Virus record (IMG/VR): IMGVR_UViG_3300045988_179183 | Length of the DNA stretch: 64,000 bases | Strand: one strand, 5' to 3' | Source of the DNA: a virus | In this document: in pieces, positions 1-64,000 of the stretch | Layout of the letters: each line of letters begins with the position of its first letter | How positions within the stretch are numbered: the first letter of the stretch is position 1 | Made by a program: the position numbers and the translations under genes | The notes under the pieces: model-generated | The model's input: the letters and a program-made list of their open reading frames with translations, nothing else | The model's database searches: none | Told to the model about the DNA's origin: nothing

Positions 1-233
1 GATTCATTTTGGCCCCTTCTAATTAAATCGATGTCTCGGACATTCTTTCTAGAAGTATAATCGAGCCAACATTTCTCTATCGCGGATTGAATCGCAGTCT
101 TCCCACTTCCATTACTCTCCTGACCCTCATCGGATCTATTCTCACCAACCAGAAGCACCGGTCCTTCCTCGAAATCATACTCAAGTTCCTTGAACGAAAG
201 AAAATTCGTTAACTTTAATTTTATCGGTTGCAT
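1..233 (-). CDS. Rad50/SbcC-like (T4 gp46-like) recombination ATPase, N-terminal fragment; the gene runs off the window start
   Basis: ATG at 233 on the minus strand. My translation is MQPIKLKLTNFLSFKELEYDFEEGPVLLVGENRSDEGQESNGSGKTAIQSAIEKCW. This shows the typical Rad50/SbcC N-terminus plus a Walker A (GSGKT). It sits directly downstream of recA and near the sbcD-like gene. Confidence 0.7.
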   Translation of the reverse strand, partial: MQPIKLKLTNFLSFKELEYDFEEGPVLLVGENRSDEGQESNGSGKTAIQSAIEKCWLDYTSRKNVRDIDLIRRGQNE

Positions 234-234
234 G

Positions 235-2235
235 TTAATCCAATTTTATCTGTTTACGTATTTCCTCCAATAATTCCGGGTTGTCGGATAGTACTGTTTT
301 AACATTCACCTCTCCTTGACCCAGACTCGTTCCATTATAGGAGAACCAACTTCCGTTCTTCTTGATGATACCCTGCTCGATCGATAAATCTAATATTTCT
401 TGCATGATATCGATCCCCTTACCGAAAGCGATTGAAATCTCCGCCTGCTTAAACGGGGGTGCTATTTTGTTTTTTTTAACGGTGACCTTGCTCCGAATAG
501 CGGTGACATCGTCACCCTCTTTTTTATTACCCATCCTGCAAATCTCGATACGCTGGGATGCGTAAAATTTCATCGCGTTTCCTCCGGGTGTTGTGTTCGC
601 CGCACCCATAAATCCGATATTACTTCGGTATTGATTTATGAATATAACCAACGTCTTATTCTTCTTTGCCTTCTGCGCTATAAGGGGTAACTCCGCGCTC
701 ATCAACCGAGCGACTAATGCGATCACGGCATCACCGACCTCACCATCTATCCTCGCCTTGGGTACTAACGCGGCGATGGAGTCAAGGATAATTATACCAA
801 TATCCGGGCAATCCAACATCCTCCTCATGATGGAAAGGGCCATCTCTGCCGAATCTGCCTGACTTAACACAAACTTTTCCGGGCTCAAATCAACCCCGAG
901 TGCCCTCATATAATCAGGATCCATTGCTTGCTCGGTATCGATATAACCCGCCGAGCGACCCATATCCTGTACTTCCCTGCACGCGTGAATGGCGAGGGAA
1001 GTATTATGTGTTATAACATGATCCTCAAGCAAATATGAATGATCGGGTGAATCTATGCTAATACAAGTACATTCGCCTGCATCAACCTCATCTATTGCGA
1101 CAACCTTTCTATGACACCCCCTTCCTGTGAGAAGAGCGGCTTTACTATGCTTTCTTTTGCAACTAAATGGATTGAACGTCACCCTCAACGAAATAGAGTA
1201 ATAGGAAAAACCTTTCGTGTTATGACATAATTTAACCGGGGACGTATATCCACCTAAACTTTGAACAAGATAAATGATATCGTTTATAAGTTGAAGTGAT
1301 GCGCTTGTATATGATACAACACTTGCCGAAACGCAACCATCCGTATCCATTAATCCCGCCAACAGATCCCTTCTTTGCGAAATAGAACCGTTGAGATAGT
1401 TTTTTGGTATAAACTTATCGGACGAAGGAACTCGAATACCTAATCGATCAAGTTCAGAAATATATTCATTTTCACGACTATAAATATCCTTTACAATTCG
1501 ATATTGAGAACAATTTTTCTGATTTCTACAAACAGTTATCCTGTAACCATCATTTAATTCTAATTTAACTCGATCGATAATATCGGAATCAGTGTTTCCT
1601 ATCGCCATAGTGGGATAACAATGGAGGCATCCATCGCCAAGAAGAACCCCCAAAATATAAGGAGAGATAAAACAATCAATAGGTTCTCTCTCTAAAGGTT
1701 TGCATAAAGGAATCTCCCATCTATAATTAGGCTTTGTTATGCCCCTCCTATAATCACTCGGAACGCGATTTCTTAAAACGCCTTTTTCTATCATTGATTT
1801 AAGCGTTCTGGGTGCATATTTTCGAATATGAGGGTTACCCATATCTTTTGCGAACCAAATATGGTCCTCCGAGCATATTTTTTCAACACCATCAATAAAC
1901 CGAACCTTATATAATCGTTTTATTCCTTGAGGATAAACACCGGTTACAGGATAAAGGTTTCCATCCGACGCGTAAACCTTATCCCCTATTCTTAAACTCT
2001 CAATAGGCGTGAGACCTTGTTCCGTAAATATCTTTGTACCATTCTTTAGGGCTTTGCCACTCGATTCATGTCCGAATATCTCAACCAGCCTACCCAGTCC
2101 GTAACCACCACCTAGCGCTCTATCTAGAATCAACGAACCCGATGGCACTCTCTCAACATCTATGTAACTACCACATATTGCTTCCTTGCCGAACTCTTTC
2201 TCAATTCCGGCAATCATACTTTTTAAATCCATCAC
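235..2235 (-). CDS. recA: RecA/UvsX-family recombinase interrupted by an intein (666-aa precursor, 316-aa mature)
   Basis: The N-extein ends FGHESSGK and the C-extein starts TSLAIHA, which rebuilds the RecA P-loop GxESSGKT. The C-extein carries RecA core motifs (IIILDSIAALVP, NQYR..IG, TPGGNAMKFYAS). Confidence 0.9.
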   Translation of the reverse strand: MMDLKSMIAGIEKEFGKEAICGSYIDVERVPSGSLILDRALGGGYGLGRLVEIFGHESSGKALKNGTKIFTEQGLTPIESLRIGDKVYASDGNLYPVTGVYPQGIKRLYKVRFIDGVEKICSEDHIWFAKDMGNPHIRKYAPRTLKSMIEKGVLRNRVPSDYRRGITKPNYRWEIPLCKPLEREPIDCFISPYILGVLLGDGCLHCYPTMAIGNTDSDIIDRVKLELNDGYRITVCRNQKNCSQYRIVKDIYSRENEYISELDRLGIRVPSSDKFIPKNYLNGSISQRRDLLAGLMDTDGCVSASVVSYTSASLQLINDIIYLVQSLGGYTSPVKLCHNTKGFSYYSISLRVTFNPFSCKRKHSKAALLTGRGCHRKVVAIDEVDAGECTCISIDSPDHSYLLEDHVITHNTSLAIHACREVQDMGRSAGYIDTEQAMDPDYMRALGVDLSPEKFVLSQADSAEMALSIMRRMLDCPDIGIIILDSIAALVPKARIDGEVGDAVIALVARLMSAELPLIAQKAKKNKTLVIFINQYRSNIGFMGAANTTPGGNAMKFYASQRIEICRMGNKKEGDDVTAIRSKVTVKKNKIAPPFKQAEISIAFGKGIDIMQEILDLSIEQGIIKKNGSWFSYNGTSLGQGEVNVKTVLSDNPELLEEIRKQIKLD
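1003..2052 (-). mobile_element. Intein in the RecA P-loop (350 aa) with a LAGLIDADG homing-endonuclease domain; starts with Ala and has class-3-like features
   Basis: Codon-checked boundaries: GK|ALKNGTKIFTEQG at the start and EDHVITHN|T at the end. Block B reads SEDHIW. LAGLIDADG motifs are ILGVLLGDGCL and LLAGLMDTDGCV. The C-terminal region reads CTCISIDSPDHSYLL..VITHN. Confidence 0.85.
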
Positions 2236-5535: not shown

Positions 5536-7531
5536 TTACGTTAGTATCAACACCTCCGTGTTTTCATTCGCGTAAATAGCCATTTGTTGATTTCTCTCGT
5601 CCCAGTTTGTTCGACCGTTCATAAACAGGATCGTATCCTTACAGTTTTTCAAAATATTTTCGAACGATTCATATTCATTGGACCAGAAAACAACCGTTCG
5701 AAACTGGTAATTCTGCTCAAGCGTGATGATGGCGTAATCACCCTTTCGTCCAGTTTTTATTGCGATTTCATACACATAACCCCCAGCCGTTAAATTATAA
5801 CTTTTCGTTTCCAAGGGATCGTCCACTATTTCCGAAAAATCTTTGAAAGGATACTCCGAATCACCAACCATCTCCTTGAAATAATCCAAGTATAATTTTG
5901 AGTAATTGAAAAACGCCAAACCACACAATTTCTTCTGCCTCAAATTATGCCACCACTCTAGTTTCACCTTATCGGGATTCAACTCAAACACATCTTTTTC
6001 CTTATCGATTTTTACCTTATTAACGGTTCTGTATCGTTTTATAAGTTTTATCCTGTCTATAACGTTTGATATTGATTCTAGCTTATCGAAAGCACCACAT
6101 GAAATCAAATTTTCTATAACACTTTTATTAACGGCACTTCCTTTCTGTGAATGACGGTCTAAAAATTCATCAAAACCAAAGTAGGGGCCGTTCTCGGATC
6201 TTTCCTTCATGATCTCCGCTTGTGCCTTCTCGCCGACCTGTTTCACTGATGAGATTGACCACACCAAACTTTTATCAGTGAAATCTGTCTTGATCTTATC
6301 CGTCGATTCATTAATATCAGGGGGGGTCACCTTGATATTTCCTATTTCATTTATCTCGTGTAGATAAACGGGGAAATCATCATCATCAGCGTAGGAGAAC
6401 GCAACGGACCAGAAAGCTAACGGATAATTTACTTTTAACCACTGACACGCGTATCCTGTGTTTGCATACGCGACCGCGTGGGATTTATTGAACTGATAAT
6501 CAGCCATATTCTCAATTTCCTTCCATGTCTCTTCCGCGTATTTTTGATCAACACCGAAATTCTCGATATAATTTTTCAAAAATCTTTCCCTGAAGGGTTG
6601 AAGTTTCTCCACGTTCTTCTTACCAATCGCACGGCGTGCGCCATCCGCGTCAACAAGATTAAACCCTCCTAACACTTGGAACATTTTCATTGTCTGCTCC
6701 TGCCATATCATGATATACCGGCTACTTTGAAGTATTTCTCCCGCCCCTTTTCTAAATGATACTTCCCTCTCACCCTTTTTACGAAGGATATACTCGTTAT
6801 GGAAATTTCCCTCCATAACCCCCGGTCGATATAACCCAATACAGTTTACAAGCTCTGTTATGTTATCGGGCTTTAACATCTTACAATATCCGGTTAACCC
6901 TTTCGCGCCAAAATGAAATACATCACCATTCCACCCCCTTTGAAAATACGAGTAAACTTTCGGATCATCAAGAGGTAATTCATAGAGGTTGATTTCTTCA
7001 CCAGTATCATCTTTGATTAATTTCAATATATCACCGAACTTACTTAACTGCAAGATTCCCAGAATATCCTCTTTCAAAAAACCCGCGGTGTCAAGTTCAC
7101 CACCCTCCCACTCACTGATCAACATATCACCCTGCCGGCGAATCGGATTCCAATGATACATATCCTTTTCATCCGGGTAAATCATCATGGCACATGCGTG
7201 AATCGATTTCGCCTTAGGTTGACCCTGTATCAAGCCGACCATCTCGATGATCTCCGGGTTTCTGTTAATGAAATTCGCGACATCTTTTTTCTGACAGGCG
7301 ATTCTGAATAAATCATCAAAATCCTTCACACCATCTATTTTAGAAGTAAATGAGTTTACCTCTGCGACGGGGACACCTTTCAACCTACATAGATCCTTGA
7401 CGGCGGCCTTGACTTGAAGAGTCGTGTAGGTTCCCACGGAGCAAACTTGATCGGCACCGTAACGCTCCTCCATGTATCTTTTAACTTCCGGTCTTCTCGC
7501 CATCTCGAAATCAGTATCGATGTCCCTTAGT
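5536..7531 (-). CDS. dnaE: DNA polymerase III alpha (DnaE-type) replicase, 3' exon; the 5' limit is approximate
   Basis: In frame, upstream of the first ATG (7503) and with no start codon, the sequence reads ..RLRDIDTDFE-MARRPEVKRYMEERYGADQVCSVGTYTTLQVKAAVKDLCRLKG. This aligns with E. coli DnaE [51 protein letters not shown]. Downstream is the finger/beta-binding region (FNKSHAVAYA). Confidence 0.85.
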
Positions 7532-8520
7532 CTGGCAGCGAACCGTGCTTGATTCGCTGCCGCTTTTCTAATTTAATTGATTTAACTATATATTCCATTT
7601 CAAATTTTGTTTTATCTGTTTTACAAATCTAGATTTTTCAATAAAAGACATCACCTTTCTCCTTATATCTGTTTCTCTTAAATACACCTCCGTATATAAA
7701 GGAACCCATTTCCTTTCGAATAGCTTGCCTTTCTGAAGAAAAGTAAGTAATGTATCATGATTACCACTCGGTGATAATGTTTTTTGTGCGTCATAAGCAG
7801 ATAGAAATTTATGTACCTCTAAAGTATAAATATTTATCATCACAATCGGTTTCGCATTCGGATTAAGACTCCCTTTCGCAACACCCCGGTCTTTTCGGAT
7901 TACTGAGATATGATCCTTCATTTCCTGGGACCATTTATTCCCATAATTACCATTTTTCCCACCCACTCGTCTCGGCGGCTTAATACCGCCAATTTTTAAA
8001 TTTAGTGTTCGTCGATCTCTCACCCACTGATGATCAACTACACGTTTTTCCTGAATCAATGCATCATCTACGGTATTAAAATACAACAAATTCACTCTCT
8101 TAAACGCACCAACCCCGTACAATCTCACGCAATTACCTAATGGCATTGGTAAAGGGTCCTTGTAATCTTTTAAACCGGTGGAGTAATCCGTCTTGATTCC
8201 GCCACCAATATAAGAATCTTCCACTGTTTTTGATGAATGAACCCCAACATATACTTTTCCGTTTACCATACAGGTTGTTTTATACAAAATATTATAAAGG
8301 TTATTGTCACCCTTAAACGGATTCTTTTGTCCGTTCGAGCATTTTGCTAATATCTCCTGATCCGACACTAACGATTCTATCTCCATCTTTTAAATCTTGA
8401 GCTTTTACATCTAATTTTTCTCCCGATCTAAAAATACACACTTTATCATCAAAATCCAACTCTATATCTAAATTATTATCGAATGTGATTTTTACAACGT
8501 CCACTTCAACTTGTTGACCG
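7532..8520 (-). mobile_element. Probable group I intron carrying a GIY-YIG homing-endonuclease ORF, interrupting dnaE; boundaries are tentative
   Basis: The DnaE reading frame breaks after FERFLNKGR (R codon at 8523..8525). It resumes at RDIDTDFE (7504..7527), which has no start codon of its own. A perfect 9-bp stem (7534..7542 pairing with 7553..7561) lies just before the resumption point. An HEG ORF lies inside. One frame-preserving junction is ..CGT AT | A CTA AGG.., with U before the 5' splice site and G at the intron end. Confidence 0.55.
7586..8386 (-). CDS. GIY-YIG homing endonuclease (I-TevI/Seg-like)
   Basis: The GIY-YIG module reads NILYKTTCMVNGKVYVGVHS...YIGGG. NUMOD3-like linkers are GKNGNYGNKWSQEMKDHIS and GSLNPNAKPIVM. 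There is a C-terminal DNA-binding-like tail. The ORF lies between the two dnaE halves. Confidence 0.8.
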   Translation of the reverse strand: MEIESLVSDQEILAKCSNGQKNPFKGDNNLYNILYKTTCMVNGKVYVGVHSSKTVEDSYIGGGIKTDYSTGLKDYKDPLPMPLGNCVRLYGVGAFKRVNLLYFNTVDDALIQEKRVVDHQWVRDRRTLNLKIGGIKPPRRVGGKNGNYGNKWSQEMKDHISVIRKDRGVAKGSLNPNAKPIVMINIYTLEVHKFLSAYDAQKTLSPSGNHDTLLTFLQKGKLFERKWVPLYTEVYLRETDIRRKVMSFIEKSRFVKQIKQNLKWNI

Positions 8521-9935
8521 ATACGACCTTTATTCAGAAAACGTTCGAATAGCAAATCGTAATCAAACGGGTTAATGTGCGTCAGACCCAATAAATAGGC
8601 GACGAGGGAGCCACAAGCTGATCCACGGCCGAACCCTACGAGTATACCTTGACGTTTACACCATTGGGTGATATCCCAAAGTATCAAGAAATAATCAACA
8701 ACATCTCCGTATTTAATTACATCTATCTCAGTTTCAAGTCTATCAAGATACTTCTCTTGTTCATCAACATCACTTATCCCCATGCTATTAAACCCATCCG
8801 CGACCAAGGATATAAGCATATCAACTTTTGATCCATCATATTTCTTGAACTCCTCCTCGGTCATTTTATATTTAGGAAGATGACGTTGTGATAGATCGAC
8901 CTTGAAATTACTACACCTTTCAGCGATATCATTTGTGTTCTCGATCGCGAATCCGATGATATCAAGCATAATATCTTGGTCATTATCAGAGAATAACTCC
9001 CTAATCTCCATCAAATATTCTTCGTTACATTTGAAGTATTGATTTTTTGAAAAATCGTTACTTATACCCGCGGATGAATTCAACGCTTTTTTCAGATAGA
9101 AATATTCTTGGTCCAAATAATACGCATCACAGATATTTGTGGGCAACATGGAACTTGAGAAATATTCCTGAAGATTCAAAAGATATACCCTATCTCTTTC
9201 ATTTGAATCAAACTTAACTGAATCAAGTTGATAGTATGTGTTCATCAATTCTTTCGGCACATCTTTAAATTGCAGGCTCTTCGGGTCAATCACGATAATT
9301 AATCCCTCTCTCAATGACAGAAACTTTCCTTCATCGATCCTCACATTATTATCAACGTTAATTTCCTTGTTGATAGAAAGAAGGTTCATCCACCCTGTTT
9401 CATCCACGACGTAAACCTTCACATCGTACAGAAGATCTTTCTTTTGATTGAACACGGTAACGGTTTCACCGATCACCGGTTTCAAACCGTGTTTCTGGCA
9501 TTCCAACTGAAATTTAAGCACACCCGCAAGTGTGTTTTTCTCACAGATACCCAAAATACTCACACCGAAAAAATTCGCTTTTCGACACCAATCTCCATAA
9601 TCTCCGGTTCCGTTCAATAATTCAAACGGACCTCTCACTCCCAGAAATGATTCGGTCGGTAAATCACTATCAACCTTACCGATATATTTCAAGAGTTTCA
9701 ACTTCACTTTCGATTCATTACCCTTTCTCAAAGTGTAATACAGACGGCCGAACTTATAGATGTAATTATTCGCAGTGATGGGTGTTCCTATGTAATTAAA
9801 CCCTCGATCAAACAGAAGTCCGTCGACATTGGGCCCTGATAATTCATATGTATCACCATCCATTGTGATAATACCCAGGTCGGAAATATCATATATAAAT
9901 CCATTGCGATCGAGATACGATAACAGTTCTTTCAT
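8521..9935 (-). CDS. dnaE: DNA polymerase III alpha (DnaE-type) replicase, 5' exon; the ORF reads through into the intron as far as 8313
   Basis: The palm region YFLILWDITQWCKRQGILVGFGRGSACGSLVAYLLGLTHINPFDYDLLFERFLNKGR matches the DnaE consensus. An N-terminal PHP-like region is present but lacks the usual His ligands (FLGVRGPFELLNG where E. coli has HLRVHSDYS). Confidence 0.85.
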
Positions 9936-13171: not shown

Positions 13172-13172
13172 T

Positions 13173-13757: not shown

Positions 13758-13786
13758 TTTTAAACAATTAATTTATTTCTAACACC

Positions 13787-13807
13787 ATAAAGATACACAA
13801 AGTGTAT
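13787..13807 (-). promoter_or_regulatory. Conserved promoter-like motif, copy 2 (ATAAAGATACACAAAGTGTAT, preceded by AACACC)
   Basis: Intergenic, about 31 nt upstream of the ATG at 13757. It shares AACACCATAAAGATACACAA with copy 3. Confidence 0.5.
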
Positions 13808-13814
13808 CGAATTA

Positions 13815-13845
13815 TCAACAAAAACAGAGATTATTTTCTCTGTTT
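13815..13845 (-). terminator. Hairpin plus U-run, putative intrinsic terminator after the dCTP-deaminase-fold gene
   Basis: The minus strand reads AAACAGAG-aaaataat-CTCTGTTT followed by TTGTTG. The stem overlaps the stop codon at 13831. Confidence 0.4.
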
Positions 13846-14331: not shown

Positions 14332-14355
14332 AATCTCTAATTTATTAAAATTTAA

Positions 14356-15682: not shown

Positions 15683-15685
15683 ATT

Positions 15686-20861: not shown

Positions 20862-23800
20862 TCAATCCAAATCAACAAAATCAATCATTGCCTGTACGTT
20901 GTTTTCCCTCAAATCTTGTATTGCCATGAACGATGACATACATATATCATCATGTCCACAAACTGATTCAAGAGTCCCTTTCTTTGAGTTAAACGCGATT
21001 GAATTAAATTCACCAAACATCGTATCAACCAACTTTCGTGTGTTTTCATCTCCGTAAGGCACCCTCAAACGTGCACTTTCAAAAAACGCTGATAGTGAGG
21101 GTAGACCTGATTTCAGATCCTTTTTATTCCCTTCAGTTGTGATAAATTCCTCGACATTAACTAATCCCCTCTCTTTCGCCATACCCGCAAGAATTCTTTG
21201 AAATCCATTCGACTCACACACGGATTTGTTCGGTTTATATCTCGCGTTAAATTCAATAAGTTTATTCACTTGAAGATCATGGCTCGCACCCTGCTCTCTA
21301 AATATATTTATAAGATATATCAATCCGTGTGCATCCATACCCCATACAGTGTATACTGTATAATCGGCACCCACATTACCCGATATCGCAAAATCACATC
21401 CCACGACAACCCTGACTAACTTTATGGGGTAACTTTCTATATCATTTGCGAAACTGATATGTTCCATCCCACGTATCGATCTTTTCAGAAATTCATACGG
21501 GAAAATCGTTGACGTGTCCGCGATCGGCACAACTAGATATTCTCGGTTGAAAACTAACGTTCCAAGTGATTTCCGTTCCTCCGTTAACCTTTTAAACGTA
21601 AGACGATCAGGTGCTAACAGTTGACCATTTGGGAAAACCGCCGGGTATTCAAATACCTTGAATCGGCCATCTTTTTTTAAATCCCCGTAAATATCCGTTG
21701 CCGAATACGGTGTGTTGTGTGATATTATCCCATTCGAAATAAACCGATGAGAAATTGGGATTTTGAAATCAACGGTGTAAGACTCACTCTCAATTATCGA
21801 TTTTATCGGTGCGAAATGATACTTCAAATTCATATTACTCAAAATAATCTGAACATCAGGATCATTTTGAGGTAAAGATAAAATCCATTTTTTTATCGGT
21901 CCGTTCATTCTTTTAAAAGAATGAACTTTCGTATAAAAATCCCCCGATCTCATACCGTAAAATTTCATCTTATCATTACCCAACGGATATTTTGATCGAA
22001 TCTTTCTTAATATCACCGATTGAAACGGTATTCCTTTATCAATGCAAGAGGATTCTCTCCTAGTTTCTCGCGGAACCTTCCCTTTTCCTGAATAAGTGAA
22101 CCCGATTTTCTCCATGAATAGTTTCACGCTCGAATTTTTGCTTATAACCAAATTGTATCCTGTTCGGTTTGATTTAACTAATTCGGTTGATTGGCATTTT
22201 TTCTTCTCAATACGTGAATCAATCCCCATGTTAAGAAGAAGTATTTGAATCTGCTGGATTAAACGAAAGCTCGTTGAAAAATAGCTTACATTTATTCCTT
22301 TATCTGAACGATGTCCGTGATAGCAGCATCCATCGCCATCAAAACACCCTCGAAGAAACCATATAACATCCTCCTCGGACGCACTCATGATTTTATCAGG
22401 AATTGTCTTGGTATGCGAATACATCCCTTTTCGATACCCTAAACTCAACCACGTGGAGATTTTCTCCTTGCTATTAAACGACATCCCTATGTGATTTTTC
22501 TTAGGGTGATACCCCCTCTCATTAATCAGAAAATTTCTTATACCGGGATTCTTTTTTGTTATCGTGACCCTATTTCCATAACCACTTAAATCCAACGTAC
22601 CGTCCGCTATACAAAGCCCGATTTCATAAAGCTCCTCCCCTTCTATACCAAGAGAACGACCCCAAATATTTGACCCCATCTTAAACGCGACAAAATCTCC
22701 TTCATACAAATCTTTCGCGTTAACCCATTCGAATAAGCCCGTTTCCGAATTACATCTAAGTAAAGGATGAATGAAACTTGTTTCAATCTCCAATCCGTTT
22801 GAAAGGGTTATGATTTTTGTGGGGGTTTTTCCGTTTACGTAATAGTCTGTCGCGTTAACAAATCCCTCACCATCATGAATGTTCATATCAAGAGGGAAAA
22901 ACCCCTTCTCTCTTTCAATATTAACAGGAGATAATTTGCCAATTTCAGTTAAACCGTTTTCGGTAAACACGTACGTATCTGGTCTCACACAACCGAGTAC
23001 ACATAAATAGCCGAACGGTTCCACGATCGGAGTGATTGACCCGTAAAAAACTTCATGAAGCTTCTCCCTTTGCTCTTGTGAATACAACGAACTTTCATCA
23101 GGCAGGTCGTCGCATACGACGGCACCAACGTGAAGACCTCGAATCATGGAATCTTTCGATCTCAAATGGAGGATTGAATCTGTTTCAGTCGTGATTGATG
23201 TCGCGGCTAACTTAGCTTTTCCGTTGCGATTCAATTTCTCCCGAAGAATATCATTTTGCTCTATCTCGGAAATAATCATCGCGATGTGTTTCTTGCCGAG
23301 TGTTTCATTATTCGTAATCATACACGTTTCCTTACGATTCTTATTGTCGATACTATCCCTAAGAAACGTGGTTGGTCGGTCATAAGAATATAACCTCCAT
23401 AAAATGAATGCAAAACACCCCTCGTAACTATTATGTACAACGGTCCCATCTTTCAAGAGAAAAAGGTGATCTCCGTCACAAGAAAAACCAACATAATCGC
23501 CATCACCGATACATTCAACCTTGAGAGAGGTTGATAAATTATCCTGCACCGTGATTTTTGAAGGTATCTTCTTTCTTTCTATTTTCACAGGAATTTCATC
23601 AACATCTCCCGAAATTGTTATCCTGTAATGAGTATAATCATGAAGGATGTTTTCACCCTTTAATGTTTTCACCTTTACATCTGCCGTCCGAGTTATAATC
23701 GAATTACATCTGAATCCCAATGATTGAGCAAGTCTTTGCGTTTGCTCTATTAAATTCCTGTCCTTAAACCCAATTTCAAAAGCATATTTACTTCGAGGAT

Positions 23801-24875
23801 TTCCTTTTTTATACTGGGATGAACCGTCAGTATCAATTAACCCGGCTAAAAGTTTCAACCGTTGTTCCCTTGATCCAAGAAGATAAATTTCAGGTATATG
23901 CTTATTACCAAGAACCCCTAAATCTTTAAGAGCGGTTTTTAGGCGGTTTTTGAATAACCTTTCTTTTTCAATAATTCGATATGAATATTTATTTGAATTA
24001 TGTTTTGACAAAATAAAACCGTTTTTCTCACAAAATTCATTTAAATATTCAATTATTTCATGATCAATAGTTGTCACTACGGGTTCCGTGTATAAACCAT
24101 CACCCAACCACAACCCCAATAAATACGGATCAACAGGAAGGTCTTTTTCAGGAAGGTCCCACCCCTTCGTTCTATACCCCATTATTTTTCTCTGAGTGTA
24201 CCCTGGCATAGAGGGGATCTCCTCAACGGGAATATTAAAGGTTTTCCAGCGCATATCTTTCCCAATACGTTTTTCATATCGAGATGGAACCTTCTTTTTG
24301 CAACAAACAATATGACCCTCGTTTACAACGTAATCAATACCCCATGTTTGTTTCACTTTCCACATTCTCGATCTACCTTTGTGTAAAGATAAAACGGTTC
24401 TTGGTTTTGAATCGGGCCCCATAACTTGATCTCCGATCGAAACATCCTTTATCTTGCGAATCGTTCCATCAGCCATCACTATTTCTGTCTCGGGAGATAA
24501 ACACTTTCCCGATGAGCGGCTCGCTAAAATGCAGTTATACAAATATAACTGGAATAGGTTACCCCATTCAAGGTTTCTCCATCCCTGTCGAAACGTTGGA
24601 AGACAAACAGTTTTAAAATAATTATAACTCTGCTTACGTAGCGAGAGGTCCATGCTCTTCTCCACGTTGGCGAGATATTCCAGTTTTTCCATGTCAAGAG
24701 TTCTATCCATGTGGGTAACGATGCATGTTTGTTCTCTCATCACGGATAGAAGCCGATCCAAATCATTTTCATAACCTGAAAGTAACTCTTGGATCGCCTT
24801 CGGTGGTAAACTCGATATTATCTCCCTGACGTAGTTATCTATATAGCTTTCTTGTACGGGAGATAATAACATCAT
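20862..24875 (-). CDS. terL: Terminase large subunit interrupted by two inteins (1337-aa precursor, 553-aa mature)
   Basis: The exteins rebuild Walker A ILASRSSGK|S, Walker B VVCDDLPDE and the coupling motif LCVLG|TPYSATD. The C-terminal nuclease domain reads VVGCDFAISG..ADYTVY. Confidence 0.85.
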   Translation of the reverse strand: MMLLSPVQESYIDNYVREIISSLPPKAIQELLSGYENDLDRLLSVMREQTCIVTHMDRTLDMEKLEYLANVEKSMDLSLRKQSYNYFKTVCLPTFRQGWRNLEWGNLFQLYLYNCILASRSSGKCLSPETEIVMADGTIRKIKDVSIGDQVMGPDSKPRTVLSLHKGRSRMWKVKQTWGIDYVVNEGHIVCCKKKVPSRYEKRIGKDMRWKTFNIPVEEIPSMPGYTQRKIMGYRTKGWDLPEKDLPVDPYLLGLWLGDGLYTEPVVTTIDHEIIEYLNEFCEKNGFILSKHNSNKYSYRIIEKERLFKNRLKTALKDLGVLGNKHIPEIYLLGSREQRLKLLAGLIDTDGSSQYKKGNPRSKYAFEIGFKDRNLIEQTQRLAQSLGFRCNSIITRTADVKVKTLKGENILHDYTHYRITISGDVDEIPVKIERKKIPSKITVQDNLSTSLKVECIGDGDYVGFSCDGDHLFLLKDGTVVHNSYEGCFAFILWRLYSYDRPTTFLRDSIDNKNRKETCMITNNETLGKKHIAMIISEIEQNDILREKLNRNGKAKLAATSITTETDSILHLRSKDSMIRGLHVGAVVCDDLPDESSLYSQEQREKLHEVFYGSITPIVEPFGYLCVLGCVRPDTYVFTENGLTEIGKLSPVNIEREKGFFPLDMNIHDGEGFVNATDYYVNGKTPTKIITLSNGLEIETSFIHPLLRCNSETGLFEWVNAKDLYEGDFVAFKMGSNIWGRSLGIEGEELYEIGLCIADGTLDLSGYGNRVTITKKNPGIRNFLINERGYHPKKNHIGMSFNSKEKISTWLSLGYRKGMYSHTKTIPDKIMSASEEDVIWFLRGCFDGDGCCYHGHRSDKGINVSYFSTSFRLIQQIQILLLNMGIDSRIEKKKCQSTELVKSNRTGYNLVISKNSSVKLFMEKIGFTYSGKGKVPRETRRESSCIDKGIPFQSVILRKIRSKYPLGNDKMKFYGMRSGDFYTKVHSFKRMNGPIKKWILSLPQNDPDVQIILSNMNLKYHFAPIKSIIESESYTVDFKIPISHRFISNGIISHNTPYSATDIYGDLKKDGRFKVFEYPAVFPNGQLLAPDRLTFKRLTEERKSLGTLVFNREYLVVPIADTSTIFPYEFLKRSIRGMEHISFANDIESYPIKLVRVVVGCDFAISGNVGADYTVYTVWGMDAHGLIYLINIFREQGASHDLQVNKLIEFNARYKPNKSVCESNGFQRILAGMAKERGLVNVEEFITTEGNKKDLKSGLPSLSAFFESARLRVPYGDENTRKLVDTMFGEFNSIAFNSKKGTLESVCGHDDICMSSFMAIQDLRENNVQAMIDFVDLD
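21714..22991 (-). mobile_element. TerL intein 2 (426 aa) before the GTP/motif III site, with a LAGLIDADG endonuclease
   Basis: Codon-checked boundaries: CVLG|CVRPDTYVFTENG at the start and SNGIISHN|TPYS at the end. LAGLIDADG motifs are LYEIGLCIADGTL and WFLRGCFDGDGCC. Confidence 0.85.
23430..24503 (-). mobile_element. TerL intein 1 (358 aa) in the Walker A P-loop, with a LAGLIDADG endonuclease
   Basis: Codon-checked boundaries: SSGK|CLSPETEIVMADG at the start and KDGTVVHN|SYEG at the end. LAGLIDADG motifs are LLGLWLGDGLY and LLAGLIDTDGSS. Confidence 0.85.
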
Positions 24876-26299: not shown

Positions 26300-26755
26300 T
26301 TATTCCTTTTTTCTTTTTAAAAAAGCCTCACGTGATCTGAAATCATGGGTGTAATGACAATCAATACACCATAACTTGATATTATCCTCGTTCAATCTTT
26401 CCTCCGTGTGAGCACCCTTACCCTTCACATGTGCAAAAAATTGTACTCGAGGTTCTTCTCCTAGATAACAACCACAATGTTCGCAATAATGAGGCCTCAA
26501 TTTCCATATTTTAAGAAACAAATCCTTCTCACCCGTTGCCTTACGAGGTTTTCGTTTTATGGGGGTGGGTTTCAACCGTCCGGGTGTGAATGATGATGGC
26601 ACGCTCACGCGGCCTAATCTCTCCCTGTTACAATAATCGCATAATCCGTACTTCTTATTCACTATATAGGTCTCCCTCCCGCATTTATGACAAACACCTC
26701 TACTCTTTAGCATATATTTCGTTCCAATTACAGGTTGTGATTGGTAATCCCTCAC
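26300..26755 (-). CDS. HNH endonuclease-like protein
   Basis: Cys pairs CHKCG..CDYCN and CEHCG, then FAHVKGKGAHTEERLNEDNIKLWCIDCH, which is an H-N-H core with a CxxC..CxxCH zinc-binding arrangement. Confidence 0.55.
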   Translation of the reverse strand: MRDYQSQPVIGTKYMLKSRGVCHKCGRETYIVNKKYGLCDYCNRERLGRVSVPSSFTPGRLKPTPIKRKPRKATGEKDLFLKIWKLRPHYCEHCGCYLGEEPRVQFFAHVKGKGAHTEERLNEDNIKLWCIDCHYTHDFRSREAFLKRKKE

Positions 26756-62489: not shown

Positions 62490-63137
62490 CTATAAATTGT
62501 TATACGCTATGATTTCATTAAATAAATCTAGCTTCATATTATCATAAAATAATTCGATGTTTCTTTTAACTCTATCCTCGGAAAAACCGTCGGATGCGTA
62601 TAATTCACTAAGCATTATGTCAGCTATATCTTCTTTCGATATGGAATTAAATTCGCTCAAGGGTTTCCCCTTCCAATTATAATTATACAGTTTACTTTTT
62701 CTATCGTTTATTCTTTGACGAACTATGGTCTTCACCTTCGCGTTCACGGCGTTCTCGTTATTTAGATGGTTCTCCTTTCTTATTCTGAGAACTTCTTCGA
62801 ACATGGTGAATTTTGCAAGATCAAATAACGCGTTTGTTGTCGTTTTCACTTGTTCTATCGTACATTCTTTCGTTGCACCCTCCCGGATTTCTTTCAAAAT
62901 CGAAAGCATATTATCGTTTATCTCCGTTTGCTTTTTCATGTAATCACTCGCCGTACCTTTCGCGAGAATCATATCCGTCAACTTATCATTCTTTTTTTCC
63001 AATCTCGCCCAATTCTGGGTAGTTTTCCTGAATACGTTGAGGAATATAACGATCATAATCGCACTCATGACCACCGTGATCCCATTATCCGCTATAAGTT
63101 TTACCAATGTACTCGTCTCTTCCATTATTGATTGCAA
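62490..63137 (-). CDS. Hypothetical membrane-anchored protein (215 aa)
   Basis: One N-terminal hydrophobic helix, GITVVMSAIMIVIFLNVF. Confidence 0.45.
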   Translation of the reverse strand: MQSIMEETSTLVKLIADNGITVVMSAIMIVIFLNVFRKTTQNWARLEKKNDKLTDMILAKGTASDYMKKQTEINDNMLSILKEIREGATKECTIEQVKTTTNALFDLAKFTMFEEVLRIRKENHLNNENAVNAKVKTIVRQRINDRKSKLYNYNWKGKPLSEFNSISKEDIADIMLSELYASDGFSEDRVKRNIELFYDNMKLDLFNEIIAYNNL

Positions 63138-63190
63138 TTATGACAAATTTTTATACGTAAAAATAAGATTTTAATTCCGTATATACAATT

Positions 63191-64000
63191 TTAAGTATAA
63201 AAAACTTTGTCACCAACAATAATTTTGACCTTTGCACCCGGTGCTGTTTTTCTTTTATAATCAATCGGTTGCTTGAATGACCTCGTTTCCTTGTCCCAAA
63301 CATCACCTTTCATGTATCGTCTCGCCAAACAACGGCAGTTGCCGCTGACACATACATTATCGTTTCTTCTAACAACCAATGTATGGTTCTTCTCAAGTTC
63401 AACATCATAAATAAAACCTTTATAAGGTTTTATTTCTTTTTTCATAACTTTCTCGTACCTGTATTTTGAATTCAGTTCAGCGACATTCCATTGGTCATAT
63501 CTGGCAAGATAATCTTTCTTCTGTTTTTTACAATGATAGATCGATTTCCCTCTATTTTTAAACGAAGGACATTTCCCCACTTTTAATAAAAGTTCACCCA
63601 AGTCATCCTTCAATTTCACCGATGATGTTGAGTATATCCTTTGAGGCTTGCACTGATACCCATCATACAAAACACCACGATGAACCGTACCATCACCTAG
63701 AAGAAACGCATCAAGAAATATTTTAATGTATTTAGGTGATAATTCTTTTATGAAATCGGGTACGTATTTTTCATGCGCGTGACCGAATGATCGAATTATA
63801 TGTATCAAATCCTTGTCATTCTCCTTGTTTAAGTTAAATTCAATCCTTTCTTTTGTTACGATAACATTTTTGAATAATGCCCTGCAACATTTAATTATTT
63901 TCTCTTTCGCTTCGGATTTTTTTTGGCTTATATTAACTCTTCTCCTCAGTATCGTACGATTCTTATCACCCCACTCTGTGAAAGAGCCTTCCGACAAATA
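63191..64000 (-). CDS. Probable MuF/SPP1 gp7-like minor head protein, C-terminal part, containing an intein; the gene runs off the window end
   Basis: The ORF is open to the window edge. The C-extein begins CRCLARRY, which resembles the conserved (H/P)NCRC motif at the end of MuF-like head morphogenesis proteins. The position at the start of the head module fits. Confidence 0.4.
   Translation of the reverse strand, partial: YLSEGSFTEWGDKNRTILRRRVNISQKKSEAKEKIIKCCRALFKNVIVTKERIEFNLNKENDKDLIHIIRSFGHAHEKYVPDFIKELSPKYIKIFLDAFLLGDGTVHRGVLYDGYQCKPQRIYSTSSVKLKDDLGELLLKVGKCPSFKNRGKSIYHCKKQKKDYLARYDQWNVAELNSKYRYEKVMKKEIKPYKGFIYDVELEKNHTLVVRRNDNVCVSGNCRCLARRYMKGDVWDKETRSFKQPIDYKRKTAPGAKVKIIVGDKVFYT
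63338..64000 (-). mobile_element. Intein (C-terminal part only; N-terminus outside the window) with a LAGLIDADG motif
   Basis: LAGLIDADG motif FLDAFLLGDGTV. Block F is GFIYDVELEKNHTLVV. Block G is NVCVSGN|C (codon-checked; Asn at 63338..63340, +1 Cys at 63335..63337). The penultimate residue is Gly, not His. Confidence 0.65.

What the first reader, a model, noticed from the sequence alone, without database searches (positions are those of the whole stretch)
1..64000. Exceptional density of selfish genetic elements in essential genes
Within 64 kb I count:
- five LAGLIDADG inteins (RecA, QueC, TerL twice, MuF-like);
- one probable group I intron with a GIY-YIG endonuclease in DnaE;
- one free-standing HNH gene.

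Four of the five inteins sit in an ATPase motif or Cys-cluster motif of the host enzyme: the RecA and TerL P-loops, the TerL coupling motif and the QueC Cys cluster. The fifth sits next to the conserved CRC motif of the MuF-like protein. This suggests intense homing among co-infecting relatives. It makes this phage a natural test bed for multi-intein dependency.
Basis: partly seen in the sequence, partly recalled or inferred. Interest (0 to 1): 0.65.

Follow-up and report, generated by a model that had tools for sequence, protein, structure and literature searches.

The report
Mobile inteins plus split-polymerase endonuclease cassette
This stretch of an uncultured human-gut phage does carry an unusually dense, recently mobile set of inteins, and the break in its DNA polymerase gene is not an intron but a homing-endonuclease cassette that splits the gene and probably makes ribosomes hop over a stop codon, as in phage T4 gene 60.

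Summary
Partly confirmed, and more interesting than described.

Four complete LAGLIDADG inteins are real: RecA P-loop, QueC Cys cluster, TerL P-loop and TerL C-motif. Each is cleanly absent from some relatives that are 97-100% identical. The fifth (MuF-like) is real, but only its C-terminal 221 residues lie in the window. Its N junction is beyond base 64000, and the full gene carries a second intein.

The RecA intein starts with Ala and shows the class 3 signature (W/C/T triplet).

The "HNH" gene is conserved at the same position wherever the upstream flank was recovered (26-100% identity). It therefore shows no sign of mobility.

The DnaE interruption is not a group I intron:
- Rfam finds nothing.
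- The 5' "intron" part is a protein tail under strong purifying selection (pN/pS about 0.1).
- After the endonuclease gene comes a conserved 23-codon leader ORF ending in the native residues SLPD, then TAA-GG, then a repeated GAC codon and the catalytic IDTDF.

Across 172 related dnaE loci, 81 are interrupted, in about nine sequence types with gaps of 0-40 nt. These mostly have matched or near-matched take-off and landing codons, a covarying 5' hairpin and, in the long gaps, a second hairpin. The architecture parallels T4 gene 39/mobA/gene 60. Translational bypass is inferred, not shown.

The parts
1003..2052 (-). RecA intein: 350 aa with a LAGLIDADG endonuclease domain, inserted in the P-loop (GHESSGK|A...ITHN|T). 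Class 3-type signature: Ala1, SEDHIW, TCISID..H.Y, T-H-N, Thr+1.
   Evidence: Pfam. The PDB sequence search matches the gp41-1 intein (3e-11) and PI-SceI. Absent from L001, L002, L003, L007, L011 and L013 and present in L004, L006, L010 and L014. Intein-less junction. Class 3 criteria from PMC2807308.
11513..12505 (-). QueC intein: 331 aa, LAGLIDADG, inserted before the third Cys of the CxxCxxC cluster (CGRCGS|C...LVHN|C).
   Evidence: Pfam QueC + Intein_splicing + LAGLIDADG_3. Presence/absence among relatives and intein-less junctions CGKCGT|C and CGKCGS|C.
23430..24503 (-). TerL intein 1: 358 aa, PI-SceI-like, in Walker A (ASRSSGK|C...VVHN|S).
   Evidence: Pfam Hom_end_hint and Hom_end. All four presence/absence combinations occur among near-identical exteins (98-100% aa); mini-inteins occupy the same site in relatives about 60% identical. 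Intein-less junction SSGK|S.
21714..22991 (-). TerL intein 2: 426 aa, LAGLIDADG, at the putative C (coupling) motif (YLCVLG|C...IISHN|TPYS).
   Evidence: Pfam LAGLIDADG_3 and Intein_splicing. Present or absent among relatives. Intein-less junction VLG|TPYS. This site type is known for Terminase_6 TerL (PMC5050341).
63338..64000 (-). C-terminal 221 aa of an intein in a putative MuF/SPP1 gp7-like head protein, with C junction VSGN|CRC. The N-terminal 128 aa and the N junction lie beyond the window end.
   Evidence: Frame read to the window end. Full gene at L025 6867-9947 with two inteins of 364 and 349 aa. L029-L032 lack this intein and read HPF|CRC.
8508..9935 (-). dnaE N-terminal cistron proper (PHP domain and start of the palm), ending ...FERFLNKGR.
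   Evidence: Pfam PHP and DNA_pol3_alpha positions 6-99. Uninterrupted relatives continue GR[VI][KQ]VSLPD[IL]D.D.
8313..8507 (-). C-terminal extension (CTE) of 64 codons plus stop, added to DnaE-N. It is absent from uninterrupted dnaE and homologous across all interrupted types.
   Evidence: Alignment of six types. pN/pS is 0.08 and 0.11 in the reading frame, against more than 1 in the other two frames. No detectable similarity to intein N-termini.
7586..8386 (-). Free-standing homing endonuclease gene (266 aa), with a GIY-YIG-like N-terminal motif and a NUMOD3-like middle region. Its start overlaps the CTE and its end overlaps the leader ATG.
   Evidence: phrog_314 at 6e-18. TIGR01453 weak. 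Homologues lie in the same position in L012, L135, L164 and L175. Lost or reduced to a remnant in L015-L019.
7527..7598 (-). Leader ORF (N-terminal extension): MEYIVKSIKLEKRQRIKHGSLPD followed by TAA. The last four residues are the native DnaE residues that precede the catalytic IDTDF.
   Evidence: Homologous leaders occur in all interrupted types. In L015 and L130 the same leader reads straight into DnaE-C with no stop.
7534..7561 (-). RNA stem-loop inside the leader, ending just 5' of the take-off codon.
   Evidence: Fold of -20.5 kcal/mol, z = -3.3. Across 13 sequence types there are 8 pairs, 4 with compensatory changes. 90% of cells are paired against 71% in shuffles, and the covariation score is 0.535 against 0.173 (0 of 500 shuffles reach it); slid controls score <=0.2.
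7522..7532 (-). Proposed recoding site: take-off GAC (7530-7532), stop TAA (7527-7529), GG (7525-7526), landing GAC (7522-7524). The next codons ATC GAT ACT GAT TTC encode IDTDF.
   Evidence: Sequence, frames. Equivalent matched pairs occur in other types: ATC/ATC, ATC/ATT, CTC/CTC, GAT/GAC. The window type has no canonical start codon in the DnaE-C frame.
5536..7521 (-). dnaE C-terminal part (catalytic IDTDF onward; palm, fingers, HhH). It is out of frame with both the leader and the N cistron.
   Evidence: Pfam DNA_pol3_alpha positions 111-260, DNA_pol3_finger and HHH_6. Frames.
26300..26755 (-). HNH-like (CxxC...H...N...CxxCH) 151-aa ORF upstream of terL. A conserved syntenic gene, not part of the mobile set.
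   Evidence: phrog_144 E=3e-4 and no Pfam hit. Present at the same position wherever the upstream flank was recovered, at 26-100% identity.

Best explanation
ORIGIN. The window comes from an uncultured, circularly permuted human-gut phage of about 100 kb with a contractile tail. Its closest cultured relatives are Bacteroides phages at 35% TerL identity.

(1) INTEINS. The window holds four complete LAGLIDADG inteins and the C-terminal part of a fifth. They sit at catalytic motifs of RecA, QueC, TerL (two) and a head protein.
- Shown: each is precisely absent from some near-identical genomes. The set therefore reflects recent homing in a co-circulating phage population.
- Inferred: the inteins splice out of the proteins, the RecA one by the class 3 route through its block-F cysteine. 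I also infer that their endonucleases cut empty alleles during co-infection.

(2) DnaE INTERRUPTION. This is a free-standing homing-endonuclease cassette, not an intron. It splits dnaE just before the catalytic aspartates into two cistrons. It adds a selected C-terminal tail to the first piece and a short basic leader to the second, presumably so that the halves reassemble (inferred by analogy with Aeh1 NrdA and T4 gp39/gp60).
- The leader ends with the native residues SLPD.
- It is followed by UAA plus 2 nt, then a repeat of the GAC codon and the rest of the gene in another frame.
- I infer that peptidyl-tRNA(Asp) leaves GAC at the stop codon and re-pairs with the GAC 8 nt downstream. This would be a short translational hop that recreates ...SLPD-IDTDF....
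- I infer that the small insert also protects the phage's own DNA from the endonuclease. This is the logic shown for T4 mobA and the gene 60 bypass.

(3) THE HNH-LIKE GENE is a conserved core gene.

CONFIDENCE BY PART. Inteins real and recently mobile, about 0.95. DnaE element is a split-gene endonuclease cassette and not an intron, about 0.9. Ribosomal hop, about 0.55-0.6.
For: INTEINS
- Pfam domains.
- Exact junctions in intein-less alleles.
- Presence/absence matrices.
- Class 3 criteria from PMC2807308 match the RecA intein sequence.

CASSETTE
- No Rfam group I hit anywhere.
- Uninterrupted alleles define the insertion point (L009 and 91 of 172 loci).
- CTE pN/pS is 0.08-0.11.
- The endonuclease is homologous across types and is lost in some, leaving a remnant.
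- The leader ORF is conserved in all types and runs uninterrupted into DnaE-C in L015 and L130.
- In interrupted types the codon before the stop, or the PD codon, is repeated exactly or synonymously just before the native sequence resumes. This holds whatever the gap length (4, 5, 6, 19 or 37 nt) and frame offset: GAC/GAC, ATC/ATC, ATC/ATT, CTC/CTC, GAT/GAC, GAT/GAT.
- Six types have no canonical start codon in the DnaE-C frame. In two of them a stop directly abuts the motif.
- The covarying 5' hairpin.
- Stable hairpins, one with a UUCG loop, directly after the take-off codon in the long-gap types.

PRECEDENT
- The T4-type cassette is described as endonuclease + CTE/NTE + bypass, with stepwise loss of the endonuclease and then of the bypass (bioRxiv 10.1101/2022.08.31.505936).
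- The tails are essential for split NrdA (PMC3045599).
Against: - No expression data: neither splicing nor hopping was observed.
- In three loci from two contigs of the window's own type, the landing codon is GGC instead of GAC.
- Four types have only near-cognate pairs: GAT/GAA, GAT/TAC, ATT/GTC, or GAG/GAA with one extra residue.
- Type I has an in-frame ATG or TTG two codons before IDTDF. Types C, F and one B form have an in-frame GTG or TTG further upstream. Independent initiation is therefore possible there.
- The window's 5-nt gap lacks the take-off stem-loop of T4.
- In the window an AUU opens the DnaE-C frame and could be a weak start.
- The endonuclease could not be placed in the GIY-YIG fold by profile or structure searches.
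- Activity of any intein endonuclease is untested.
Confidence: 0.75

Rival explanations
1. [quoted passage not shown]
For: - The two dnaE parts are in different frames, and the catalytic DIDTDF has no start codon of its own.
- The endonuclease has a weak hit to TIGR01453 'group I intron endonuclease'.
- A conserved hairpin lies near the 3' end.
Against: - No Intron_gpI hit at gathering threshold or at E<=10, in the window or in the 226-300-nt ORF-less versions of relatives.
- The 5' 195 nt are purine-rich coding sequence with pN/pS 0.08-0.11.
- Only about 60 nt follow the endonuclease ORF, too little for P7/P3'/P8/P9.
- L015 and L130 have a plain two-cistron arrangement with overlapping stop and start codons.
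- The frame offset between leader and DnaE-C differs between homologous types. A fixed splice site cannot accommodate that.
Confidence: 0.03
2. dnaE is split by the endonuclease cassette as described, but no hop occurs. The leader is a separate upstream mini-ORF. DnaE-C is made by termination-reinitiation, or by initiation at a nearby non-canonical or canonical codon (AUU/AUC/AUA, or the ATG/TTG/GTG seen in some types).
For: - Types C, F, I and B-gap4 have an in-frame GTG, TTG or ATG upstream of the motif.
- In many types the first codon after the gap is AUU, AUC or AUA.
- The GGC landing variant of the window type survives in two contigs.
Against: - The window type, B-gap6, D, E, G and H have no canonical start. 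In E and G a stop directly abuts the motif, and the next codon in G is GUC.
- The position of any candidate start is not conserved.
- The leader always ends in the native SLPD(I/L), with synonymous variation and a repeated codon. That is unexplained if the leader is not joined to DnaE-C.
- L015 and L130 show the joined product as a normal ORF.
Confidence: 0.2
3. The split dnaE is a decaying pseudogene. The phage replicates with another polymerase, and the small insert with its stop codon is simply a disabling lesion.
For: In-frame stops, frame changes and the GGC variant.
Against: - Both halves are full length and conserved at 97-100% across more than 25 contigs, with all catalytic motifs intact.
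- The CTE is under purifying selection.
- The same architecture persists in lineages that are only 50-65% identical.
- No other DNA polymerase gene was seen in the window, although about 36 kb of the genome was not examined.
Confidence: 0.04
4. The DnaE-N tail and the leader are the two halves of a split intein flanking a free-standing endonuclease (a 'fractured gene'). DnaE would then be rejoined by protein trans-splicing.
For: - The layout matches: a split host gene, an endonuclease between the halves, an acidic beta-rich tail and a basic leader starting MK(I/V)xKI like a C-intein.
- Ser would be the +1 residue.
Against: - No N-terminal Cys/Ser/Ala nucleophile context, no block B TxxH, no terminal Asn.
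- Tail plus leader total only 60-85 aa.
- hhalign against the intein N-termini of this phage gives 3.5% probability.
- This reading does not explain the stop and frame change after SLPD.
Confidence: 0.02

Closest known systems
Phage T4 gene 39 / mobA / gene 60 cassette (homing endonuclease plus 50-nt translational bypass), and its relatives in T4-like topoisomerase genes
   Same: - An endonuclease gene splits an essential enzyme gene inside a metal-binding catalytic motif.
- It adds a C-terminal tail to piece 1 and an N-terminal extension to piece 2.
- A short non-coding insert follows about 20 codons into piece 2.
- It has matched take-off and landing codons, a stop right after take-off, a 5' stem-loop and, in relatives of this window, a take-off stem-loop with a UUCG loop.
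- Lineages have lost the endonuclease, or both the endonuclease and the gap (searches compared).
   Different: - The host gene is dnaE, whereas the known family is reported exclusively in Topo2L.
- The endonuclease is GIY-YIG-like, not MobA/HNH.
- The phages are human-gut phages, probably of Bacteroidota.
- Gaps range from 0 to about 40 nt, and the window's gap is only 5 nt with no take-off hairpin.
- No sequence similarity to the T4 element was seen, though none was formally tested.
- Bypass is untested here.
Aeromonas phage Aeh1 nrdA split by mobE (NrdA-a/NrdA-b 'genes in pieces')
   Same: A free-standing endonuclease fragments an essential gene. The new C- and N-terminal tails created by the insertion are needed to assemble an active enzyme (PMC3045599).
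   Different: That case has normal start and stop codons and needs no recoding. Here the second piece lacks its own start and is out of frame with its leader.
Mycobacteriophage TerL inteins (TerL1-a in the P-loop, TerL6-f in the C-motif) and P-loop inteins in general
   Same: - Same insertion-site types (K|T/S of Walker A; C-motif).
- LAGLIDADG endonuclease domains.
- Sporadic distribution among close relatives (PMC5050341).
   Different: - Different phage lineage and host.
- Both sites are occupied in one TerL.
- All four occupancy states are seen among near-identical exteins (98-100% aa).
Class 3 inteins (mycobacteriophage Bethlehem DnaB intein)
   Same: A non-nucleophilic first residue, Trp at block B position 12, Cys at block F position 4, Thr at block G position 5, and Thr/Ser at +1 (PMC2807308; RecA intein sequence).
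   Different: - It sits in the RecA P-loop and carries a LAGLIDADG domain.
- Its splicing domain is closest in sequence to the gp41-1 intein.
- The mechanism is untested.
[quoted passage not shown]
   Same: Human-gut phages of Bacteroidota whose core genes are heavily invaded by homing elements (PMC7886860).
   Different: - Those carry mostly group I introns (up to 14) and at most 3 inteins in 145-192 kb.
- This phage is a different lineage (contractile tail, DnaE polymerase). It carries mostly inteins, at least six per genome of about 100 kb in some members, and no detected intron.

Membership tests
Intein (class 1), for QueC, TerL-1 and TerL-2 | Cys/Ser at intein position 1; C-terminal Asn followed by Cys/Ser/Thr at +1 | tested here: met
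   C...HN|C, C...HN|S and C...HN|T, read. Boundaries fixed by intein-less alleles.
Intein (class 1), for QueC, TerL-1 and TerL-2 | Hint splicing domain plus, optionally, a homing endonuclease domain | tested here: met
   Pfam Intein_splicing, Hom_end_hint, Hom_end and LAGLIDADG_3. Some scores fall below the Pfam gathering cut-offs.
Intein (class 1), for QueC, TerL-1 and TerL-2 | In-frame insertion whose exact removal restores a contiguous conserved host protein | tested here: met
   Intein-less relatives read SSGK|S, VLG|TPYS and CG(K)CG(S/T)|C.
Intein (class 1), for QueC, TerL-1 and TerL-2 | Protein splicing activity | not testable with these tools
   Needs a splicing reporter or proteomics.
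Class 3 intein, for RecA | Non-nucleophilic residue 1; Trp at B:12; Cys at F:4; Thr at G:5; Ser/Thr at +1 | tested here: met
   A1. S-E-D-H-I-W places W two residues after the block B His. T-C-I-S-I-D-S-P-D-H-S-Y has the same C/D/H/aromatic spacing as MP-Be DnaB. I-T-H-N|T. Sequence, criteria.
Class 3 intein, for RecA | Obligate block F Cys branch intermediate | not testable with these tools
   Biochemical.
Group I intron, for the DnaE interruption | Conserved catalytic core (P3-P9) recognisable by a covariance model | tested here: not met
   Rfam at gathering threshold and at E<=10: no Intron_gpI hit in the window or in six related loci, including the 226-300-nt ORF-less forms. The Rfam model can miss divergent phage introns.
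Group I intron, for the DnaE interruption | The intervening sequence is non-coding apart from an optional endonuclease ORF in a loop | tested here: not met
   The 5' 195 nt encode a tail with pN/pS 0.08-0.11. The 3' part encodes a conserved leader with an ATG.
Group I intron, for the DnaE interruption | A fixed pair of splice sites restoring one reading frame | tested here: not met
   The frame offset between leader and downstream exon differs (0, +1, +2) among homologous types.
T4 mobA/gene 60-type bypass cassette | Homing endonuclease gene splitting an essential gene, with conserved CTE and NTE tails | tested here: met
T4 mobA/gene 60-type bypass cassette | Non-coding gap bounded by matched take-off and landing codons, with a stop or slow codon right after take-off | tested here: met
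   Window: GAC UAA GG GAC. Exact or synonymous pairs occur in types A, B, C, E and F and near-cognate pairs in D, G, H and I. A GGC landing variant occurs in 3 loci.
T4 mobA/gene 60-type bypass cassette | Take-off stem-loop inside the gap | tested here: not met
   The window's gap is only 5 nt. Strong hairpins are present in the 36-40-nt gaps of types D and F (folded); H and I have matching CCCCC...GGGGG arms by inspection; the 19-nt gap of type E holds only a 4-bp GCCC/GGGC stem.
T4 mobA/gene 60-type bypass cassette | 5' stem-loop upstream of take-off | tested here: met
   Window 7534-7561, -20.5 kcal/mol. Covariation across 13 types.
T4 mobA/gene 60-type bypass cassette | Insertion in Topo2L and homology to the MobA element | tested here: not met
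   The host gene is dnaE. The endonuclease is not MobA-like. This can therefore be at most an analogue, not a member of that family.
T4 mobA/gene 60-type bypass cassette | Ribosomes actually bypass the gap; the insert protects against the endonuclease | not testable with these tools
   Needs reporter assays, proteomics and cleavage assays.
GIY-YIG homing endonuclease | GIY-YIG catalytic domain (GIY...YIG, Arg, Glu, Asn motifs; beta-beta-alpha-beta-alpha fold) | tested here: inconclusive
   - Motifs readable by eye (ILYKTT...GKVYVGV...E...N..GG).
- phrog_314 'homing endonuclease'.
- Weak TIGR01453.
- NUMOD3 in distant homologue P0009.
- No Pfam hit, no PDB sequence hit.
- AF2 model pLDDT 63 with no Foldseek match.
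Free-standing HNH homing endonuclease (as a mobile element) | Sporadic presence/absence among close relatives | tested here: not met
   Present and syntenic in every TerL locus with enough upstream flank, at 26-100% identity.
Split intein / fractured gene | N-terminal nucleophile, block B, C-terminal Asn; about 130 aa Hint fold from the two halves | tested here: not met
   Residues absent. hhalign probability 3.5%.

The most novel reading that the evidence does not exclude
The dnaE genes of a widespread group of human-gut phages carry a second, independently evolved family of programmed translational bypass elements. Each is delivered by a GIY-YIG-like homing-endonuclease cassette. The coding gaps range from 4 to about 40 nt, and the window holds the minimal 5-nt form: a hop over UAA from GAC to GAC. 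Programmed bypassing would then no longer be an oddity of the T4-like topoisomerase gene. It would be a recurrent way for homing endonucleases to immunise their own host gene, with a natural series of gap lengths and hairpins for dissecting the mechanism.
Probability: 0.55. Interest if true: 0.88.

Novelty: new variant of a known kind. Interest (0 to 1): 0.74.

Why it matters
INTEINS. This is a ready-made natural population in which at least seven intein sites (RecA, QueC, TerL x2, head protein, DnaB, DnaE) segregate independently among near-identical genomes (an eighth, the second head-protein intein, varies only against the 83-84% relatives). That allows homing rates, co-conversion tracts and fitness costs of multiple inteins to be measured from metagenomes or mixed infections.

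RECODING. Efficient programmed bypassing in phages is so far known only from the T4 gene 60 family, reported exclusively in topoisomerase genes. A non-homologous set in dnaE, with many gap lengths, would test which features (matched codons, stop, 5' and take-off hairpins, nascent peptide) are general.

ANNOTATION. The case also shows that an 'intron with endonuclease' call from sequence alone can hide a split-gene cassette. Gene callers will mis-annotate such polymerases as two or three unrelated ORFs.

Tried and rejected
- Near-identity search of the GenBank phage collection with 24 kb of the window: no match. No cultured close relative. The best TerL match is a fragmentary, unannotated phage record from human faeces (57%); the best cultured match is Bacteroides phages at 35%.
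- Exact-protein lookup of a window protein to find the source contig: not on record.
- Rfam, three searches: nothing at gathering threshold; only chance snoRNA hits at E of 3.8 and 6.4.
- Hand search for group I splice-site rules (U at the exon end, G at the intron end). No consistent junction restores the native length, and an R-element-like 'CAGACUAAG' sits directly against the downstream exon with no room for P8/P7'. Abandoned.
- -1/+1 frameshift at an A AAA AAG-like run before the hairpin in the B-type loci: the frames do not fit. Rejected.
- Split-intein idea: catalytic residues are missing and hhalign gives 3.5%. Rejected.
- Endonuclease fold assignment: no hit in Pfam, in PDB with a single sequence, or in PDB with a profile. 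The homologue search found only 9 relatives, one of them with NUMOD3. The AF2 model was low-confidence and Foldseek found nothing. Left inconclusive.
- pN/pS on the short leader in type F: not discriminating, 0.38 in two frames.
- tRNA scan of the window: none found, so no phage suppressor tRNA here that could explain the stop.

Full report
WHAT THE WINDOW IS

All long ORFs lie on the minus strand. GC content is about 40%, and there are no tRNA genes. The genes are those of a tailed phage:
- RecA, an Mre11-like phosphoesterase, a split DnaE, a DnaB-like helicase, a primase-like protein and a DnaQ-like exonuclease.
- A 7-deazaguanine gene set (FolE, QueD, QueE, QueC).
- TerL, baseplate J, a tube initiator, an SU10-like capsid protein, a head protease and two very large fibre proteins.

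No GenBank phage is close at the DNA level. By TerL protein the best hit is a fragmentary, unannotated phage record from human faeces (57%); the nearest cultured phages are Bacteroides thetaiotaomicron phages at 35% identity.

Public collections hold many near-identical contigs of 50-101 kb from human-gut metagenomes and IMG/VR. Gene order on those contigs implies a circularly permuted genome of about 100 kb (my arithmetic). No retrieved contig has exactly the window's combination of elements.

THE INTEINS

Pfam finds host-protein and intein/LAGLIDADG domains in RecA, QueC and TerL. Reading the junctions gives:
- RecA: GHESSGK|ALKNG...VITHN|TSLAIHA
- QueC: CGRCGS|CIEES...YLVHN|CTERLEAF
- TerL: ASRSSGK|CLSPE...TVVHN|SYEG and YLCVLG|CVRPD...IISHN|TPYS

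The strongest test came from relatives. In contigs whose exteins are 97-100% identical, the same genes occur without the insert and read exactly across the predicted junctions: SSGK|TSLAIHA, SSGK|S(Y/F)EG, VLG|TPYS and CGKCG(T/S)|C.

Among near-identical TerL exteins (98-100% aa) all four states exist:
- both inteins: L034-L038, L046, L052
- only intein 2: L033
- only intein 1: L040, L041
- neither: L039

More distant relatives (about 60% identical) carry mini-inteins at the P-loop site. The RecA, QueC and first MuF inteins are likewise present in some near-identical genomes and absent from others; the second MuF intein is present in all of them and missing only from the 83-84% relatives.

The RecA intein is atypical because it starts with Ala. 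It has Trp two residues after the block B His (SEDHIW), a block F Cys in the pattern T-C-I-S-I-D...H.Y, and T-H-N|T at the end. This is the class 3 'WCT' signature as defined for the mycobacteriophage Bethlehem DnaB intein (PMC2807308). Its splicing domain is closest in sequence to the gp41-1 intein and its endonuclease domain to PI-SceI.

The insertion sites are established intein site types: K|T/S of Walker A, and the TerL C-motif (PMC5050341).

THE FIFTH INTEIN

The ORF at 63191-64000 runs open to the window end. It contains one LAGLIDADG motif pair remnant and the C junction VSGN|CRC. The full gene in L025 is 1026 aa with two inteins: PGA|C...SGN|CRHC (364 aa) and HPF|C...SGN|CRC (349 aa).

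The window holds only the last 221 residues of the second intein. Relatives L029-L032 lack it and read HPF|CRC. So the intein is real, but its N junction is not in the window. The host protein is only weakly MuF/SPP1-gp7-like.

THE HNH GENE

ORF 26300-26755 has a CxxC...H...N...CxxCH pattern and a weak PHROG hit (E=3e-4), with no Pfam hit. It is found at the same position upstream of terL in every related locus that has enough flank, at 26-100% identity. That is the behaviour of a conserved core gene, not of a sporadically distributed homing element. I cannot say what it does.

THE DnaE INTERRUPTION: WHAT IT IS NOT

DnaE-N (8313-9935) matches the polymerase profile up to position 99, and DnaE-C (5536-7503) matches from position 111. 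The missing piece, the catalytic DIDTDF, lies in frame just upstream of the ATG at 7503 with no canonical start codon.

Between the two parts lies a 266-aa ORF annotated by PHROGs as a homing endonuclease. An intron is therefore a natural guess. The evidence is against it:
- Rfam finds no group I intron at gathering threshold or at E<=10. This holds in the window and in relatives whose intervening sequence is only 226-300 nt with no ORF.
- The first 64 codons after FERFLNKGR continue the DnaE-N frame and are conserved as protein in all interrupted lineages. pN/pS is 0.08 and 0.11 in that frame and above 1 in the other two frames.
- The sequence is purine-rich coding DNA, not a ribozyme core.

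THE DnaE INTERRUPTION: WHAT IT IS

Uninterrupted relatives read FERFLN(K/A)GR(V/I)(K/Q)VSLPD(I/L)D.D. These are L009 and 91 of the 172 dnaE loci collected. The 81 interrupted loci fall into about nine sequence types. All share the same plan:
1. DnaE-N plus a C-terminal tail.
2. A homologous endonuclease gene (window type, L012, L135, L164, L175), a remnant of it (L018), or nothing.
3. A short ORF with an ATG, often overlapping the preceding stop. It encodes a basic leader that ends in (G/V)S(L/M)PD or ...PD(I/L), which are the native DnaE residues.
4. In most types, a stop codon and a short insert.
5. A repeat of the last leader codon, followed by the native D.D... sequence in whatever frame results.

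In the window this reads MEYIVKSIKLEKRQRIKHGSLPD-TAA-GG-GAC-ATC-GAT-ACT-GAT-TTC (7598 down to about 7510).

Other types:

| Type / loci | Take-off | Gap | Landing |
|---|---|---|---|
| C (L018 group) | ATC | TAAG | ATC, or ATT in L135 |
| B, gap 4 (L017 group) | CTC | TGAG | CTC |
| B, gap 6 (L016, L012) | CTC | TGAGAC | CTC |
| E (L175 group) | ATC | TAG + 16 nt | ATT |
| F (L183, L179 group) | GAT | TAA or CAA + 34 nt | GAC, or GAT in L268 |

L015 and L130 have no insert at all, and the leader reads straight into DnaE-C.

Gap lengths of 4, 5, 6, 19 and 37 nt give different frame offsets. Even so, joining take-off to landing recreates the native ...SLPD(I/L)D.D... in each of these types. In the window type and in B-gap6, D, E, G and H there is no canonical start codon in the downstream frame. 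In E and G a stop directly abuts the motif.

A stem-loop ends just 5' of the take-off codon in every type. Across 13 sequences:
- 8 pairs are predicted, 4 of them with compensatory changes.
- 90% of cells are paired, against 71% in shuffles.
- The covariation score is 0.535 against 0.173 (0 of 500 shuffles reach it), and at most 0.2 when the partner columns are slid.

In the window this stem-loop is 7534-7561, at -20.5 kcal/mol. The 36-40-nt gaps carry a second, very stable hairpin right after the take-off codon, with a UUCG loop in type F; the 19-nt gap of type E has only a 4-bp stem (z-scores -5.7 to -7.6 for types F and D, -2.5 for E).

COMPARISON WITH THE KNOWN CASE

This is the architecture described for T4 gene 39/mobA/gene 60 and its relatives:
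- An endonuclease splits the topoisomerase gene inside a metal-binding motif.
- Conserved C- and N-terminal tails are added.
- A coding gap has matched take-off and landing codons, a stop or slow codon after take-off, and 5' and take-off stem-loops.
- Lineages have lost the endonuclease, or both the endonuclease and the bypass, while keeping the tails.

In T4 the insert protects the phage from its own endonuclease (bioRxiv 10.1101/2022.08.31.505936). That survey states that all known elements are exclusively in Topo2L. For Aeh1 NrdA split by mobE, the tails are essential for assembling the enzyme (PMC3045599).

My literature searches found no report of such a cassette in dnaE. These searches cover only the held library.

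I therefore propose that the window's dnaE is expressed as two polypeptides. The second would be made by a ribosomal hop of peptidyl-tRNA(Asp) from GAC (7530-7532) over UAA-GG to GAC (7522-7524).

CAVEATS ON THE HOP

- Nothing here measures translation.
- Three loci of the window's own type, from two contigs, have GGC at the landing position.
- Types D, G, H and I have only near-cognate pairs.
- Type I has an in-frame ATG or TTG two codons before IDTDF, and types C, F and B-gap4 have an in-frame GTG or TTG. Reinitiation or independent initiation is a live alternative for some types.
- The window's 5-nt gap has no take-off hairpin.
- The endonuclease has GIY-YIG-like motifs by eye, a weak hit to the I-TevI-type NCBIfam model and a distant homologue with NUMOD3. 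No profile or fold search places it.

I put the split-gene cassette at about 0.9 and the hop at about 0.55-0.6.

OVERALL VERDICT

About 9.4% of the window is intein or cassette DNA. The density is high, and for inteins possibly among the highest in phages. [quoted passage not shown]

The inteins themselves are new members of known kinds at known site types. The part that lies furthest from what is known is the dnaE cassette. If the hop is real, it is a new and apparently independent variant of the T4 gene 60 phenomenon.

Noticed in passing
L025 7512-8603 (outside the window, same gene as window 63191-64000): The MuF-like head protein carries a second LAGLIDADG intein (364 aa, PGA|C...SGN|CRHC) upstream of the one cut by the window end. 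It is itself polymorphic among near-identical genomes: absent in L021, L023, L026 and L027.
   Followed up: partly
Window 19442-20884 (DnaB-like helicase); L035 about 7490-8542: The window's helicase has no intein. Near-identical relatives (L035, L036, L037, L040, L076) carry an intein of about 350 aa in its P-loop (SGVGK|ALTLD...PTHN|STVL). It again starts with Ala and ends T-H-N, so it is probably class 3.
   Followed up: partly
L014 7030-7857; L015/L016/L017 at the equivalent site; L017 4819-6000 (these correspond to window DnaE-C residues about 350 and 293): Relatives have two further intein sites in DnaE-C that are empty in the window. One is at YQFN|.SHAVAY: 279 aa with an HNH-type endonuclease in L014, and a 171-aa mini-intein in L015-L017. 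The other is at DSARR|C...VHN|C: 396 aa, LAGLIDADG, in L017.
   Followed up: partly
Window 12506-13228 (QueC N-extein), compared with L001-L014 and L093-L109: The QueC N-extein is only 80-91% identical between genomes whose neighbouring genes are 97-100% identical. The variation does not track intein presence. This is a local mosaic or recombination hot spot next to an intein site.
   Followed up: no
L012 4790-5120: L012 has an intact B-type DnaE-N tail and the start of a B-type leader (MIIIKNIR). These are followed by a degenerate, stop-riddled copy of a C-type tail and then an intact C-type endonuclease. It looks like a second cassette invading a gene that was already split.
   Followed up: partly
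L010/L216 and L132, at the position equal to window 7522-7524: In two independent contigs of the window's type, the proposed landing codon is GGC instead of GAC. This is either a tolerated mismatch or evidence against strict codon re-pairing.
   Followed up: partly
Window 10645-17916: A 7-deazaguanine (preQ0-type) gene set: GTP cyclohydrolase I (15686-16327), radical-SAM QueE-like (16353-17117), PTPS/QueD (17341-17916) and QueC. It also holds a ParB-N protein (15245-15682) and two ORFs with no family hit (10645-11448, 14356-15252) that might be the DNA transglycosylase. This suggests modified DNA. tRNA-Asp, the proposed hopping tRNA, is normally queuosine-modified, which may be coincidence.
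   Followed up: no
Window 29391-34646 and 35988-40985: Two very large probable fibre proteins (1751 and 1665 aa). The first has long leucine-rich-repeat arrays, an InlB B-repeat-like domain and, by eye, a lectin-like C-terminal region. GC skew is locally flattened across them.
   Followed up: no
Window 1-234: The window starts inside a further minus-strand gene whose N-terminus (MQPIKLKL...NGSGKTA) looks like an SbcC/Rad50-type ATPase with an uninterrupted P-loop. It lies downstream of RecA in a cluster that also holds the Mre11-like phosphoesterase (2232-3290), which is upstream of RecA.
   Followed up: no
L164 3465-3500, L265, L235/L228, L183: The long-gap cassette types share a CCCCC...GGGGG hairpin right after the take-off codon. 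Its inner stem and loop differ between types (UUCG-type loop in F). This is probably the ancestral form from which the 4-6-nt gaps derive by deletion.
   Followed up: partly
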